64,000 bases of DNA. Source: Mytilus edulis (Eukaryota). A program made the position numbers. The stretch spans positions 25,668,001 through 25,732,000 of the forward strand of contig NC_092346.1 of assembly GCF_963676685.1 (NCBI RefSeq), in the 5' to 3' direction. Positions 42,001 to 51,000 of this stretch are shown here, piece after piece. How positions within the stretch are numbered: the first letter of the stretch is position 1; each line of letters starts with the position of its first letter.

Positions 42001-45000
42001 GACAATTATAAGAGGATTACAACGAAACAAAAGAAACACCGAAGTCGTCAAAAGAAACAAACGACAATGCAATATAAATAGAAACGAACTATTAGATATC
42101 AACTGCCAAGGGATAAATTCAACCACAATTTTCATTTTTCCCAATTATATATGCTAATTTTTATTAAAAATGATTTTTTGGCAAACTAGGCGGTACTATG
42201 GAAAGCGGCATAACTCTTTGTTCTTTTTTGGTAGAAACGCAAACACCAAGTTATTCCTTCCCCTGATCATGTTATATGATCTCAGAAGGCGCTTCAGTTG
42301 CAGTTAGAAGTGGCAGGAAAATTTTGGAACTAAAAATTATTATTACATTCTGCGTAATTTGTGTTTTAAATAATATGATTATATTGTGACTTGAGAAGAA
42401 AAAGGATTATATTCTGTAGATAATTAGGTAACTTTAATATGTTATCTGACATTGGAATTTATAGGTCCGTAATTTGTCGTAATTTGCATCTACCTGCTTG
42501 AGAGTTTTAGAGTTTAAAGAATATGGTAGTCTAATTTTATTGAAAGGTTTTTCTTGTATTACTTTTCACGGAACGGTTCCTATACAAGTACAAGAAAAAG
42601 TATCAAGAGAATATTGTATTAGATCCAGTGAGTGATTTTGGTCAGCTGAAGCGCCAGAAAATAAAATTATAGTTTAATTAGAGAGACAGTATAATTTTAC
42701 GATGAAAATTGTCGTAATTGGTAGTTCACACGTTCGTAGATTGGGAACTTTTATTTATAATAGACTTGCATTACATAATTTCAACTTGATGAACTGTGAG
42801 GTAAAATGTCTTGGGATCGGCGGCGGAAAAGTTTCAAATTCAGATCATGTGCAAACTATTTTGTCGTTCATAGAGAAAAATCGTCCCGAACATGTAATTG
42901 TTCACATTGGTGGTAACGATTTGGATATATTAGGAGCCTCTGAAGATACGGTAGAGGAATTGGGGTTACGGCTGATTTTATTATCCCAAACATTGACAAC
43001 TCGATTTGAGATTAAGTCAGTAACAATATGCCAACTTCTACCAAGAGAATCGACACGAGTCATTGCATCAAATGTGTATAATGATTTAGTTATTAAGACT
43101 AACAGATTTTTGAAAGCACAAATAAAGGGCCAACCACATTGTCGTTACTGGAAAATAACAGGAGTGAAAAATTCGGATCGCAATAACTATGTTGATGGTG
43201 TTCACTTTAACTATGATGTTCGGCATGCCAAAATATTTTCGAAATATAAGAGGGTCAATTATTCAAGCTATGAAATGAAGAAAGTTAACAGCAGTTAAGT
43301 ATTGGACAGGTTTTTATTTATTTATTTATTTGTTAAAAGCTATATTAAGTTCAAGGGAAATTCCCCATAAACATGCTTGTACAGAACAATGCGATTTAAT
43401 GTTCAATTTCTTTCAAAACTGGAGGTATAATTTGGGTATTATGTGCCAAGAATAGTTTTATGCAACTATGGTATATTTATACCAGGATGATTTGTTTCAA
43501 TAATAATTATATTAAAATTAGGGTTTTAACCGGAGTGTCATATCATTATAACAGTTTTTATGATAACAACACGTTATATTCCTTGGATACTTTCTCGCGT
43601 GGTTGTATCGTATCGGGACCACACATAGGAGCAGAAGATAAATAAACAAACTCATAAACTATACGGCTTGTAATTAAAGTCATGATAGTAACAACACAGC
43701 TGCATCATCCATAAATTTTAACGGTCATCCAGACAGTCTGCTAAGGTTCATAAAAACAATTAAGATAAAATTATTTAACAACCTTATCCCTAACAAATTA
43801 AAACACAGCTGCATATTACATCAATTTTAACGGTCATTCAGACAGTCTGATAGAGTTCATGAAAACAACTAAGAGAAATTATTTATTTAACAATCCTTAT
43901 CATAGCAAATTAGGTGGGCAATTAAATACGGGCAACAGAACTGCGTATATTTACAGAGCTTAAATCTTCTTCTTGCGTTTTGTTATAAGTGTAACATTAT
44001 ACATGTAGACTTTTTCACCAAGAATCATTGTAATTAGAATTCACATATTTATTAGTGAATAGTGCATATGACACATATATAGAATATCATTAATTCTTTA
44101 TTTTATTTTTTTCTAAATTTTGTACTTGGATACATTGTGTACTTTAAACAGGTGTTATGGCACCTACATGAATTTATAAGGCTCTTTTGATGAGCCACTG
44201 AGATAAATAGTGTACTTGGATACATTTATGTACTTAACACAAGCGCATATGAATCTATGAGGCTCTAGTACATATGCATGATATGGTGCTTTGATGAGCA
44301 ATGCCCATATGGCATTTATATAGTTTCATTGTGCTTGAGTACATATTTGTATGCATGATGGGTGCCTATAACATTTAGATGAATTCTATGAGGCTCTTGT
44401 ACCCATATGGTGCGTTGAGGAGCATGCCCATATGGCATATAGATAGATTTGTTGTGTTTGAGTACTTATTGTATCTAGTTTGAGTGTATATAGCATTTAG
44501 ATGAATCTCGTACAAATGGTGCTTTATATGTATAGAATATGATTTATATTTTATTTTATTTTTTCCTAAATTTTGTACTTGGATACATTGTGTACTTTAA
44601 ACAGGTGTTATGGCACCTACATGAATTTATAAGGCTCTTTTGATGAGCCACTGAGATAAATAGTGTACTTGGATACATTTATGTACTTAACACAGGCGCA
44701 TCTGAATCTATGAGGCTCTAGTACATATGCATGATATGGTGCTTTGATGAGCAATGCCCATATGGCATTTATATAGTTTTATTGTGCTTGAGTACATATT
44801 TGTATGCATGATGGGTGCATATAACATTTAGATGAATTCTATGAGGCTCTAGTACCCATATGGTGCGTTGAGGAGCATGCCCATATGGCATATAGATAGA
44901 TTTGTTGTGTTTGAGTACTCTTTGTATCTATTTTGGAGTGCAAATAGCTTTTAGATGAATTTGTGACGCTCTAGTAAAAATGGTGCTTGATGGGCAGTGC

Positions 45001-48000: not shown

Positions 48001-51000
48001 AGAGCAAGCCTGTGTTGACAAAAATGCTAATTTTTATTAAAAATGATTTTTTGGCAAACTAGGCGGTACTATGGAAAGCGGCATAACTCTTTGTTCTTTT
48101 TTGGTAGAAACGCAAACACCAAGTTATTCCTTCCCCTGATCATGTTATATGATCTCAGAAGGCGCTTCAGTTGCAGTTAGAAGTGGCAGGAAAATTTTGG
48201 AACTAAAAATTATACCCACCATCCCTCCCTGGATAGCTAATTCGGATTTTGTCATGATGTTTGAACCAATTTAAATTGAAATATTTTAATTTTGTTTAAT
48301 AATGAATATTGTGTATTCATGTTTTATTTGGTTTAACAATATGTCAGTGTTTATATTCGAATGTAACACCATCTCTGATGGGCGAATGTAACCCCATCTT
48401 TGATGGGATGGGTCAATAAGGTTTTGTCATTATAACCATATAATATGTTGTTTATAAATAAGATTTATTGATTTCATTATACATGTTTTTCATTGTGTTG
48501 CTTCTTCGTCATTTTAATAATAAATGACAGTTTTCAATTCTTAAATATTTGTTTGTTTGTCATTCTTTCATCCCATCAAACAGAGCAAGCCTGTGAGACC
48601 TTTTAGAATAAAATAACTTCATTTTAACCATATCTATATTCAATATACATGTACTATCTCTGGGTCAATATGCCAATGTTCACTGCTTAATAGATGAGCT
48701 CTTTTTTCTAAAGGCCTCTAAATATTATGTGAAAATTTAATGTTAAATCATGGCTAATTAACTTTCAAATAAAAGTGGTTCAAATGCATTTAATTTTTTC
48801 TATTTCTTCTATTTTTTTTATATTAAGCAACATTACTTGTAAAAATTAACTGAAGTTAACGTCAATATCAAAACTGCTTTGTTTTGTAAGAAGTTGCCTA
48901 CTTTTACAAAAAGAAATAATGCTGATTGGTAGACCTTTGTTGTGATCCCTACACATTAGTTTCGTCCTTGCTTCTAATAGATATAACTAATGTATTGTTG
49001 ATGGGGATTGCCACTTTTCGTGCCGATGGTCGGTGGTTCCTTGGGCACTTCGTGGGCCAAAACCAATAAAAACTGATCGCCGCTGAATACTTTAGTAGCA
49101 AAAAGAACAGCACTGAACATGTTATTTCGAATTGCTAGATTGTCCATCTAAAAAAATAATGTAAATAAATCTAATTGTAAAAGTCTTAATTTATTTACAA
49201 GAATTTCGTTGTTTGATAGGATTAAATACCTTTAATAGACATAAAAAACATTTCAATGGCTAGCTTATGATAATTTTCACTTCCTTAGTTAATGCAAGAT
49301 GCAGTATAAGCAACTAAGAAATTTAAGAAAACATATAAATATTTGAATATTGAAAAATTAATATATCAAGGTTTTGCTCCAAAACTTGCCCCTAAAAGCA
49401 TGAATGACCTGTGTATTCTGTTTTTAACATTTTTGCACTGTTAAGATTTGTGTTTTTCAACTTAATATCGACTACATATATTTTTTTTTATCAAAGAATA
49501 GCTAAAAGCTATCTTTTTGCAGATGGCGATTTTTTGGGGGGCACCTGCATGGTTGTTGTTTAATTAACAAGAAGCGTAATTACAGTAAACTTATTATGTC
49601 AAAAACATCCTTAGCTCTAATTAAAGTATGTTATTTGGTTTTATGGTGAATTACAATTGAATCACAAGCACAAATTTTGGTTTTCATGCATTTTTGTCAT
49701 TTTCAATGGAATTTCTGGAAAACGGCCCTATTTATTAAAAATCCGACATTAATTTTCCAAAGGGCTTTTGATAAAAGAGGAACGAAAGATACCAGAGGGA
49801 CAGTCAAACTCATAAATCGAAATAAACTGACAACGCCATGAGTAAATATGAAAAGGACAAACAGACAAACAATGGTACACATGACACAACATAGAAAACT
49901 AAAGAATCAACAACACGAACCACACTAAAAACTAAGGGTGATCTTAGGTGCTCCGGAAGGGTAAGCAGATCCTGCTCCACATGTGGCACCCGTCGTGTTG
50001 CTAATGTGATTAAAAATCCGGTAAATAGTCTAATTCGGTAGGTAACATTTATGAAAGGGAAGGGGATTGTAGTTATGACGTAAGGAACACATCCGATATC
50101 TTTTGTGAAACGGTTATTCCATAACCGTCAACCAACTCGTGATGGCGTCCTTAAAATTTACGAAGAGATGATTGCAACTTAATAATTTGGAACTCTTGAT
50201 TTTATAGCTTCCTTGTTAGCAACAACCCTCTATCAAGAAAATCATGATAGGAAATGCAAGCACGGGAATATCGTATCAATTGGGAGATATATTCACCCTA
50301 TTCAGGTGCTGCTGGAATATTGCTACTTAGAAATGGAAAGTTCACAATTGGAAAGCTGAAATCATCTCTTTTGTCGTACAGTTTTGTTTTCAATCGAACC
50401 TCATTGTCAATTTCTAGATGTAAGTCAAGATATGAGGCCGACTTAACTGTATCTGTTGTATCCTTTATCTCTACTTCAATGGGACAGATACGATCGACAT
50501 AGTCACCAAATATTGAATTGTTTAGTGAAAGAACATCATCTATATAGCGGAAAGTAGAGTTAAAGGATATTGCTAACTTTTTGTCTTTCTTCCTCTTGTC
50601 TTTCTTCCTAAGAAGTTCCTATATGAAGTCAGCCTCATAATGATAAAGAAACAAGTCAGCAAGAAGAGGGGCATAATTCGTTCCCATTGGAATGCCGATA
50701 GTCTGTTGTAAAACACGTCCTCCGAACGTAACAAATATGTTGTCAATCAAGAAATCAAGCATCTTGATAATGTCAGTTTCACAGAATTTTTGTTTGAATC
50801 AGAGTGATCCTTTACAAAGTAAGATTTATCCTTTCCCAAGACAAGATACTTGTACCTTCGTCGGCCATTCTTTTTGATGAAACAAAGCAATACCAACTCT
50901 TTCAATTTGTCTTTTAATTTGGAATGTGGAATACTTGTATAAAGTTTAGAAAAGTCAAATGTGTTAATACTATTACAAAATGAACTCATCATAGATACCA

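What the first reader, a model, noticed from the sequence alone, without database searches (positions are those of the whole stretch)
42151..48595. Young split-direct-repeat element carrying only SGNH hydrolase + gag, without RT, RNase H or recombinase
Seen: perfect A1/A2 (190 nt) and B1/B2 (215 nt) repeats in the A1...B1-A2...B2 order, no TSD, two frameshifted ORFs, and no recognisable RT, RNase H or tyrosine-recombinase remnant. Established: this repeat layout and Zn-finger gag typify Ngaro/PAT-like YR retrotransposons, and some animal Ngaro elements carry an SGNH hydrolase, normally 3' of the recombinase. Unusual here: the hydrolase lies 5' of gag, and identical repeats coexist with decayed ORFs. 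Inference: a non-autonomous lineage mobilised recently in trans, or one half of a bipartite system whose partner supplies RT and YR.
Basis: partly seen in the sequence, partly recalled or inferred. Interest (0 to 1): 0.8.

Follow-up and report, generated by a model that had tools for sequence, protein, structure and literature searches.

The report
Pol-less Ngaro-like retrotransposon copy in mussel
This is a recently inserted, already defective copy of a mussel tyrosine-recombinase-type (Ngaro-like) retrotransposon that keeps its split terminal repeats, an esterase gene and a gag gene but has no polymerase or recombinase, so it most likely moved with enzymes borrowed from a relative.

Summary
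A1/A2 (190 nt) and B1/B2 (215 nt) are each 100% identical and lie in the order A1...B1-A2...B2, with no target-site duplication. The element carries an SGNH esterase gene (1 frameshift) 5' of a zinc-finger gag gene (1 frameshift, 1 in-frame stop). No RT, RNase H or recombinase trace was found.

The host is a Mytilus mussel. Its proteins are 95-97% identical to both genes. One M. edulis gene model (P0046) joins SGNH to gag in the same order. Another (P0045) carries the same gag, 96% identical, followed directly by RT and RNase H. So the family is not obligately bipartite, and the esterase-first order recurs at another locus.

Best reading: a young, non-autonomous copy of a Ngaro-like family, copied in trans from an already defective template.

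The recombinase of the family was never seen. Copy number in the genome could not be checked, because no mussel DNA collection was open.

Verdict: a variant of a known kind, of modest interest. The points of interest are the esterase-first gene order and the possibility of a persistent gag+esterase lineage without pol.

The parts
42151..48595 (+). Whole element (6445 nt): split-direct-repeat retrotransposon copy without pol or recombinase
   Evidence: Bounds are set by the outer ends of A1 and B2. No TSD.
42151..42340 (+). Repeat A1 (190 nt)
   Evidence: 100% identical to A2.
42702..43275 (+). SGNH (GDSL-type) esterase gene, broken by 1 frameshift and 0 stops. All four catalytic blocks are present.
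   Evidence: Pfam Lipase_GDSL_2 E 9.7e-5, below the curated cut-off. 95% identical to the 191-aa Mytilus proteins P0001 and P0002. Break count. Invariant G7, S9, G38, N72, D73; D165 and H168 in at least 90% of 32 sequences. Model pLDDT 84.4. Best PDB match PAF-AH Ib alpha, E 7.5e-8, TM 0.67.
43276..45230 (.). Non-coding spacer between SGNH and gag. It holds a 109-nt direct pair (43693-43912) and a 453-nt tandem repeat (44075-44991).
   Evidence: The tandem copies are 93-97% identical, so they are older than the 100% terminal repeats. 0 of 10 stop-free ORFs match Pfam at E<=10.
45231..46501 (+). gag-like gene with a CCCH finger plus a CCHC-like knuckle, broken by 1 frameshift and 1 in-frame stop. 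The match ends 16 residues before the end of the relatives P0043 and P0047.
   Evidence: tblastn outer bounds and break counts. 95-97% identical to Mytilus P0043-P0047 over the 191-aa piece. Invariant W37, Y81, D82, C141, C150, C155, C161, C173 in 64 sequences. Family of 2685 representative clusters. Fold without a PDB or BFVD match.
46502..47799 (.). 3' non-coding stretch, where relatives would carry RT/RH (and presumably YR). It holds a T-rich microsatellite (46928-47024) and an A-rich tract (47396-47449).
   Evidence: No RT/RH by tblastn or by profile. 0 of 10 plus-strand ORFs with a credible Pfam match. TRF. No Rfam family or tRNA.
47800..48014 (+). Repeat B1 (215 nt); holds one TATAAA and one AATAAA hexamer
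   Evidence: 100% identical to B2. Hexamers.
48015..48023 (+). 9-nt spacer at the internal B1-A2 junction (the presumed end-joining or circle-junction template)
   Evidence: Not repeated at either outer flank.
48024..48213 (+). Repeat A2 (190 nt)
48214..48380 (+). Unique 167 nt between A2 and B2. Its 3' end is the first copy of a 25-nt tandem pair (48358-48407) whose second copy lies in the start of B2.
48381..48595 (+). Repeat B2 (215 nt), 3' end of the element; AATAAA at 48519

Best explanation
The region is one young insertion of a non-autonomous member of a Mytilus Ngaro-like (split-direct-repeat, DIRS-order) retrotransposon family.

Shown: it keeps all the cis parts (A1, the internal B1-9nt-A2 junction, B2). 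It keeps two genes, a PAF-AH-like SGNH esterase and a zinc-finger gag, both already broken. It has no RT, RNase H or recombinase.

Inferred steps:
1. An RNA is transcribed from within A1 and ends at the poly(A) signal in B2.
2. The RNA is bound by gag and copied by RT/RH supplied in trans by an autonomous relative of the P0045 type.
3. The missing outer repeat parts are remade from the internal B1-A2 copy. This makes A1=A2 and B1=B2 at the moment of insertion (published model).
4. A tyrosine recombinase from the helper inserts the DNA without a target-site duplication.

The lesions and the loss of pol were already in the template, which is why they sit beside perfect repeats.

The esterase-first order is a circular permutation of the vertebrate Ngaro order. 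The cycle gag > RT/RH > YR > SGNH is kept, and only the position of the B/A repeat module differs (inference).
For: - Repeat layout and perfect identity, with no TSD.
- SGNH fold and catalytic residues.
- The gag family is large, 2685 clusters, with conserved CCCH and CCHC residues.
- Close Mytilus relatives: P0046 joins SGNH to gag in the same order. P0045 has the same gag followed by RVT_1 (E 1.8e-11) and RT_RNaseH (E 8e-4). Distant pol relatives align from the start of its pol part, with up to 98% coverage of residues 405-852.
- Pol relatives are RT/RH only. 0 of the 120 listed hits carry a protease, DDE integrase or Phage_integrase domain, and neither do 0 of the 10 longest on rescanning. 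This fits the DIRS order.
- No RT/RH or other domain is left in the element.
- At least 3 disabling lesions plus loss of pol sit beside 0 differences in 405 paired repeat positions. The internal 453-nt tandem copies already differ by 3-7%. So part of the odd interior is older than the insertion.
- Neither of the 2 frameshift zones holds a homopolymer longer than 4 nt, which argues against typical long-read indel errors.
- SGNH and RT relatives share exact contig lengths twice (5640 and 5978 nt), against 0.3 expected by chance, P about 0.04.
- Literature: the SDR order and identity of the repeats at insertion (passages of PMC6681497); an SGNH ORF in amphibian Ngaro (passages of PMC9210276).
Against: - No tyrosine recombinase was seen anywhere, in the window or in any relative retrieved. 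'Ngaro-like' therefore rests on the repeat layout, the absence of a TSD, the RT/RH-only pol of relatives and the SGNH ORF.
- The only RT-bearing close relative (P0045) belongs to a sister gag subfamily. Identity is 89-93% between subfamilies and 95-96% within them, and the window groups with P0043, P0044 and P0046.
- P0045 and P0046 are automatic gene models and could bridge neighbouring sequences.
- Copy number and shared junctions in the genome could not be examined.
- The frameshifts could still be assembly errors.
- The excess of gag (22 member sequences in 5 clusters) and SGNH (18 in 3 clusters) over RT (1) among close relatives may simply reflect repeat masking of RT before gene prediction.
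Confidence: 0.65

Rival explanations
1. Decay after insertion. A complete autonomous copy inserted here. It then lost RT/RH/YR by one internal deletion and picked up the frameshifts and the stop in place. The repeats stayed identical by chance or by gene conversion.
For: A single deletion can remove pol. Close relatives with intact gag and SGNH ORFs exist. There are no data on other copies.
Against: It needs at least 4 independent disabling events with 0 substitutions in 405 paired repeat positions. By my own rough estimate, using assumed indel and nonsense shares, about 6 repeat differences would be expected, not a tool result. The interior also carries about 3.2 kb of non-coding DNA, including tandem copies that have diverged 3-7%. 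That does not look like a fresh one-step deletion.
Confidence: 0.12
2. Assembly artefact. The perfect repeats and/or the frameshifts come from collapsed or mis-joined copies and from indel errors, and the real locus differs.
For: Perfect repeats are what a collapse would give. No reads were available to check.
Against: The layout reproduces the published A1...B1-A2...B2 architecture exactly, with sharp repeat ends. Neither of the 2 frameshift zones holds a homopolymer longer than 4 nt. The in-frame stop is a substitution-type lesion.
Confidence: 0.05
3. A maintained 'half-autonomous' lineage. SGNH+gag elements without pol form a persistent, selected lineage that supplies its own structural protein and esterase and depends on a sister subfamily for RT/RH/YR. 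The window copy would be a dead member of it.
For: The window's gag groups with P0043, P0044 and P0046. One of these is joined to SGNH and none to RT. The RT-bearing P0045 is in the sister subfamily. Intact 191-aa SGNH proteins and gag proteins of 399-458 aa exist in three Mytilus species. Close relatives number 18 SGNH and 22 gag member sequences against 1 RT. P0001 (SGNH) and P0044 (gag alone) report the same longest-contig length, 1,291,247.
Against: gag is normally a separate ORF, so gag-only proteins say nothing about pol. Annotation bias against RT is likely. No genomic context was seen. Both genes are broken in this copy.
Confidence: 0.2

Closest known systems
Ngaro-like retrotransposons with an SGNH ORF (e.g. 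DIRS-53_XT of Xenopus tropicalis; passages of PMC9210276)
   Same: Split direct repeats A1...B1-A2-B2 with 100% identical pairs of a few hundred nt. A gag-like ORF. An extra SGNH hydrolase ORF. No methyltransferase.
   Different: Here SGNH lies before gag, not after YR. This copy has no RT/RH/YR. Long non-coding spacers are present (1.95 and 1.3 kb). The family's recombinase was not seen.
Non-autonomous retroelement derivatives that keep an accessory ORF: TelKA2n of bdelloid rotifers, which lacks the end of gag and most of pol but keeps its extra ORF (passage of PMC5408684). From recall only: SIRE/VIPER, LARD-type elements and maize Zeon/Cinful.
   Same: Terminal repeats kept and pol lost. Structural or accessory genes are retained, and the element depends on a relative.
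   Different: Those are LTR-integrase or VIPER elements. Here the ends are split direct repeats, and the retained accessory gene is an esterase placed first.
ORF1p esterases of CR1/L2/RTEX LINEs (ZfL2-1; passages of PMC3905857)
   Same: An SGNH esterase encoded as the first ORF of a retroelement, upstream of the polymerase and close in structure to PAF-AH. PAF-AH is the best PDB match here too.
   Different: In LINEs the esterase is one domain of a multi-domain ORF1p. Here it is a stand-alone protein of about 191 aa, followed by a separate zinc-finger gag. Homology between the two esterase groups was not tested.
PAF acetylhydrolase Ib alpha subunits (PDB 1bwp, 1wab, 1fxw)
   Same: Best structural matches (E 7.5e-8, TM 0.67). 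The same Ser/Gly/Asn/Asp-His blocks. No signal peptide: the catalytic Ser is residue 9.
   Different: 17-20% sequence identity only. This is a cellular enzyme, not a mobile-element gene.

Membership tests
Ngaro-like (order DIRS) tyrosine-recombinase retrotransposons | Split direct repeats: A1 at the 5' end and B1-A2-B2 at the 3' end, with A1=A2 and B1=B2 | tested here: met
   Definition from passages of PMC9210276 and PMC6681497.
Ngaro-like (order DIRS) tyrosine-recombinase retrotransposons | Encodes a tyrosine recombinase | tested here: not met
   None in the window copy. None among the 120 listed pol relatives or the 10 longest rescanned. YR is normally a separate ORF, and no mussel DNA could be read, so its presence in autonomous relatives is untested.
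Ngaro-like (order DIRS) tyrosine-recombinase retrotransposons | Pol made of RT and RNase H only, without protease or DDE integrase | tested here: inconclusive
   Absent from the window copy. Met in relatives: P0045 has RVT_1 and RT_RNaseH, and 0 of 120 and 0 of 10 relatives carry protease or integrase domains.
Ngaro-like (order DIRS) tyrosine-recombinase retrotransposons | RT falls in the Ngaro clade in a phylogeny with reference elements | not testable with these tools
   No named Ngaro, DIRS or PAT comparator could be retrieved. No hit carried such a name.
Ngaro-like (order DIRS) tyrosine-recombinase retrotransposons | Insertion without a target-site duplication (feature recalled, not taken from a call) | tested here: met
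   0 nt of adjacent identity.
Animal Ngaro subgroup with a hydrolase ORF | SGNH hydrolase ORF placed after YR | tested here: not met
   The SGNH ORF is present, but it lies 5' of gag in the window and in gene model P0046.
PAT-like / DIRS-like elements | Methyltransferase domain after RT/RH; for DIRS-like, inverted terminal repeats plus an internal complementary region | tested here: not met
   No methyltransferase domain in P0045 or in the 10 long relatives. The repeats are direct. The 12 inverted pairs reported are 42-75 nt low-complexity T-rich/A-rich arms.
LTR retrotransposons (Gypsy, BEL, Copia) | One pair of long terminal direct repeats at the two ends, a 4-6 bp TSD, and an integrase | tested here: not met
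   There are two different repeat pairs in split order, no TSD, and no integrase in relatives.
SGNH hydrolase superfamily | Four blocks with catalytic Ser, Gly, Asn and Asp-x-x-His, on a flavodoxin-like alpha/beta fold | tested here: met
   S9, G38 and N72 invariant; D165 and H168 in at least 90% of 32 sequences. Model pLDDT 84.4. 116 PDB matches at E<=0.001; the matches listed are almost all SGNH/GDSL-type enzymes. Profile hits to GDSL-like lipase (E 4.4e-6) and PAF-AH Ib (E 1.4e-4). The single-sequence Pfam score is below the curated cut-off.
Retroviral-type Gag (capsid fold plus nucleocapsid knuckle) | CA-like helical capsid domains and a CCHC knuckle | tested here: inconclusive
   A CCCH finger and a CCHC-like knuckle are conserved. 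The confident model (pLDDT 85.6) has 0 matches at E<=0.001 in the PDB or BFVD. The profile gives only weak hits to CCCH RNA-binding fingers, E 0.09-0.8. 'gag' rests on position and zinc fingers.

The most novel reading that the evidence does not exclude
Mytilus harbours a persistent retrotransposon lineage that has given up RT, RNase H and recombinase but keeps, under selection, its own gag and an esterase moved to the first-ORF position. It lives on the enzymes of a sister autonomous subfamily. If so, the esterase, like gag, would be needed in cis or in bulk for each RNA. That would be the first functional clue to the unexplained hydrolase of Ngaro elements.
Probability: 0.25. Interest if true: 0.55.

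Novelty: new variant of a known kind. Interest (0 to 1): 0.35.

Why it matters
Ngaro elements are among the least studied retrotransposons, and the role of their SGNH hydrolase is unknown (passages of PMC9210276 and PMC7192593).

A family in which the esterase comes first is a natural comparison set. So are derivatives that shed RT/RH/YR yet keep esterase and gag. Whether these two genes stay under purifying selection in pol-less copies would show whether they act on the element's own RNA.

The circular-permutation view (same gene cycle, with the repeat module shifted) would also show how freely the 'ends' of these elements can move around the circle.

For genome annotation, the stand-alone proteins should be flagged as transposon genes. 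These are the roughly 190-aa 'SGNH hydrolase' proteins and the 'C3H1-type domain' proteins of mussels.

As a single locus it is an ordinary dead transposon copy.

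Tried and rejected
I replaced them with stop-free ORFs sent to the same tool and a local six-frame profile scan.
- **SGNH, single-sequence PDB search:** nothing significant, best E 0.065. The alignment profile and the fold search were needed.
- **gag:** Pfam found nothing for either ORF piece or for the 5 full relatives. The PDB and BFVD fold searches found nothing at E<=0.001. 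A capsid-like fold is therefore unproven.
- **Search for a recombinase in relatives:** 0 of 120 listed pol relatives, 0 of the 10 longest rescanned, and nothing useful from the atlas.
- **Rfam and tRNA scans** of 41500-49200: 0 matches. No SINE or tRNA-like part was recognised.
- **Paralogous empty site or second copy in the window:** none.
- **Literature.**
  - 'Ngaro'+'SGNH' gave 2 papers, 'Ngaro'+'hydrolase'+'tyrosine recombinase' 9, 'Ngaro'+'Mytilus' 7, 'Ngaro'+'non-autonomous' 26 and 'SGNH'+'retrotransposon' 32.
  - One search was badly posed and gave nothing usable.
  - I read passages only of PMC9210276, PMC10294476, PMC6681497, PMC7192593, PMC13465315, PMC12477816, PMC3783388, PMC5408684 and PMC3905857. 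For PMC12440569 I read passages and the abstract.
  - None of these passages describes an esterase-first Ngaro or a gag+SGNH pol-less derivative.
  - Goodwin & Poulter 2004, Poulter & Goodwin 2005 and Poulter & Butler 2015 were not held (for the last). They are cited from recall or through the papers above.
Supplements were closed (for example the ORF tables of PMC9210276) and may bear on ORF order.
- **Rejected readings:** an LTR element (two different repeat pairs, no TSD); a DIRS-like element (no inverted repeats or internal complementary region); a host gene pair (both genes are broken and lie inside the repeats).
- **Not human.** The window is mussel-like.
- **Collections.** The one genome-contig scan was not used, because that collection holds only bacteria and archaea.

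Full report
**1. The observation**

- The two repeat pairs are real and perfect. A1 (42151-42340) equals A2 (48024-48213), 190 nt. B1 (47800-48014) equals B2 (48381-48595), 215 nt.
- Identity stops abruptly at all repeat ends.
- The order is A1 ... B1 - 9 nt - A2 - 167 nt - B2.
- There is no target-site duplication: 0 nt of adjacent identity.
- The window contains no N. It holds no second copy of any part of the element.
- Two perfect repeats of about 200 nt at this spacing cannot be chance.
- This is exactly the split-direct-repeat (SDR) architecture given for Ngaro-like, PAT-like and VIPER elements (passages of PMC9210276, and of PMC6681497).

**2. The genes**

*SGNH esterase.* The first gene (42702-43275, + strand) is an SGNH esterase.
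- The single sequence scores only below Pfam's cut-off (Lipase_GDSL_2, E 9.7e-5).
- It has 42 homologues at E<=0.001 among 137 candidates. The best three are Mytilus proteins of 162-191 aa, 95-96% identical.
- In an alignment of 32 sequences, Ser9, Gly38, Asn72 and Asp73 are invariant. Asp165 and His168 are kept in at least 90%.
- The AlphaFold model (pLDDT 84.4) matches SGNH enzymes. The best match is PAF acetylhydrolase Ib alpha (E 7.5e-8, TM 0.67). The alignment profile also finds GDSL-like lipase and PAF-AH Ib by sequence.
- The catalytic serine is residue 9, so there is no signal peptide.

*gag.* The second gene (45231-46501, + strand) is gag-like.
- I searched its pieces one frame at a time. 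No cross-frame or spliced sequence was built or searched.
- The 191-aa C-terminal piece finds 2685 representative clusters at E<=0.001. The 150 best listed are 112-686 aa, most between about 200 and 450 aa, and in the longer ones the conserved domain usually lies at the C-terminal end.
- In 64 aligned sequences a Trp, a Tyr-Asp pair and the cysteines of a CCCH finger and a CCHC-like knuckle are invariant. H159, C164 and H168 are near-invariant.
- The confident model (pLDDT 85.6) has no match at E<=0.001 in the PDB or in BFVD. The profile gives only weak hits to CCCH RNA-binding fingers (E 0.09-0.8).
- So 'gag' rests on position and zinc fingers, not on a capsid fold.

- SGNH has 1 frameshift and 0 stops.
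- gag has 1 frameshift and 1 in-frame stop. Its match ends 16 residues before the end of relatives P0043 and P0047.
- Neither of the 2 frameshift zones holds a homopolymer longer than 4 nt.

**3. What is missing**

- tblastn with the pol part of the closest RT-bearing relative (P0045, residues 405-852) finds nothing in the element at E<=10.
- A profile of 120 RT/RH relatives, scanned against all six frames of the window, gives 10 hits at E 2.2-9.5. None lies in the element.
- Twenty stop-free ORFs from the two non-coding stretches give no Pfam match better than E 0.08.
- There is no Rfam family and no tRNA.
- The interior instead holds 1.95 kb of spacer, with a 109-nt pair and a 453-nt tandem repeat whose copies are 93-97% identical. 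It also holds 1.3 kb of low-complexity DNA before B1.

**4. Relatives**

The host is a Mytilus mussel. Five longer proteins match the gag piece at 95-97% identity (5 of 502 candidates).

| Protein | Length | Species | Content |
|---|---|---|---|
| P0043 | 458 aa | M. galloprovincialis | gag alone |
| P0044 | 399 aa | M. edulis | gag alone |
| P0047 | 442 aa | M. trossulus | gag alone |
| P0046 | 585 aa | M. edulis | residues 1-154 of the SGNH protein joined to gag, the same order as in the window |
| P0045 | 852 aa | M. edulis | gag followed at once by RVT_1 (E 1.8e-11) and RT_RNaseH (E 8e-4) |

- Distant pol relatives align from the very start of P0045's pol part, with up to 98% coverage. This speaks against a chimeric gene model.
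- The pol relatives number 954 at E<=0.001, of which 120 are listed. They are 471-702 aa. 0 of the 120 carry a protease, DDE integrase or Phage_integrase domain, and the same holds for 0 of the 10 longest on rescanning.
- An RT/RH-only pol is what DIRS-order elements have.
- The recombinase itself, normally a separate ORF, was never seen.
- SGNH and RT relatives from the same source report identical longest-contig lengths twice (5640 and 5978 nt), against 0.3 expected by chance, P about 0.04. This weakly supports one element type carrying both.
- P0001 (SGNH) and P0044 (gag) both report a longest contig of 1,291,247.
- Stand-alone SGNH proteins of about 200 aa form mollusc-dominated clusters of 52-303 members in the atlas.

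**5. Subfamilies**

- The gag proteins fall into two groups. P0043, P0044 and P0046 form one. P0045 and P0047 form the other. Identity is 95-96% within a group and 89-93% between groups.
- The N-terminal part of the window's gag is 93% identical to P0044 but 81% to P0045.
- So the one RT-bearing relative belongs to the sister group.
- Among close relatives (clusters at 90% identity) there are 18 SGNH and 22 gag member sequences but only 1 RT. This fits pol-less copies outnumbering autonomous ones. It may equally reflect masking of RT before gene prediction.

**6. How it most likely works**

*Shown:* intact cis repeats, two broken genes, no enzymes for copying or insertion, no TSD.

*From the published model* (passages of PMC6681497; the original papers are recalled only): the outer repeat parts are remade from the internal B1-A2 copy during reverse transcription. 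A1=A2 and B1=B2 therefore hold at insertion, and identity marks recent activity.

*Inferred:*
- Transcription starts in A1 and ends at the AATAAA in B2.
- gag, RT/RH and YR are supplied in trans by a P0045-type relative.
- The recombinase inserts the DNA without a duplication.

At least 3 disabling lesions and the loss of pol coexist with 0 differences in 405 paired positions. The internal tandem copies already differ by 3-7%. So the defects were most likely in the template. My rough estimate that in-place decay would leave about 6 repeat differences uses assumed mutation shares and is not a tool result.

The esterase probably hydrolyses a small acyl ester. This follows PAF-AH and the LINE ORF1p esterase, for which a lipid or membrane role was proposed (passages of PMC3905857, and of PMC5408684). 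It is an analogy, not a result.

**7. Gene order**

- In Xenopus Ngaro the SGNH ORF follows YR. Here it precedes gag.
- Read around a circle, the order gag > RT/RH > YR > SGNH is the same. Only the place of the B/A repeat module differs.
- I offer this circular permutation as an inference. It needs the full-length mussel element to be checked.
- An esterase in first-ORF position is known in CR1/L2/RTEX LINEs. A non-autonomous LTR family that kept its accessory ORF (TelKA2n) is described in rotifers.

**8. Comparison and verdict**

- The element works like a non-autonomous Ngaro. Membership is supported by the SDR layout, the absence of a TSD, the RT/RH-only pol of relatives and the SGNH ORF.
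- The defining recombinase and the RT phylogeny are untested, and the SGNH position differs from the described one.
- My literature searches turned up no description of an esterase-first Ngaro or of a gag+SGNH pol-less derivative in the passages I read. Repbase, the key subscription papers and all supplements were out of reach.
- I rate it a new variant of a known kind. As a locus it is ordinary; as a family feature it is mildly interesting.

**9. Slip**

-, and in part, printed coordinates that show indirectly where reading frames change.
- I stopped doing this and afterwards printed counts and outer bounds only.

Noticed in passing
window 55680-57413, minus strand: Two ORFs (156 and 289 aa) that look like a Penelope-like element: an RT-like ORF followed by a GIY-YIG-like endonuclease motif. 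The naming is my reading of motifs from recall. Pfam gave 0 families at E<=0.01.
   Followed up: partly
window 15585-16151, minus strand: A 188-aa ORF with a reverse-transcriptase domain (RVT_1, E 1.8e-13). It is probably a LINE-type fragment unrelated to the element.
   Followed up: partly
window 39376-39933, 58693-59244 and 53987-54478, all minus strand: Two very similar ORFs (185 and 183 aa) that look like N-terminal exons of membrane receptors, plus a 7tm_1-like exon (E 4.6e-4, below cut-off). They suggest two tandem paralogous GPCR-like genes. The element would lie between them, about 2.2 kb upstream of the first.
   Followed up: partly
window 4474-5016 (+) and 23452-24060 (+): Host-gene exons: a TLDc domain (E 1.2e-18) and a nucleotide-sugar transporter (E 9.3e-20).
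   Followed up: no
window 41907-42035, 38294-38428 and 60553-60627: A short interspersed repeat (75-77% identity; the other two copies are inverted) lies about 115 nt upstream of A1. Its family is unknown.
   Followed up: no
window 44075-44991: The 453-nt tandem repeat inside the element itself contains 123-nt sub-repeats. Its copies are 93-97% identical while the terminal repeats are 100%, so it gives an internal relative clock.
   Followed up: partly
window 48358-48407: The first 25 nt of B are tandemly duplicated (92%) just before B2 but not before B1. This is unexplained.
   Followed up: no
proteins P0043-P0047 (relatives): The C-terminal ends of the gag gene models differ. P0044 and P0046 stop within a residue of where the window's gag match ends. 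P0043 and P0047 run 16-17 residues further. P0045 continues into pol. The gag/pol boundary is therefore variable among copies. I did not analyse why.
   Followed up: no
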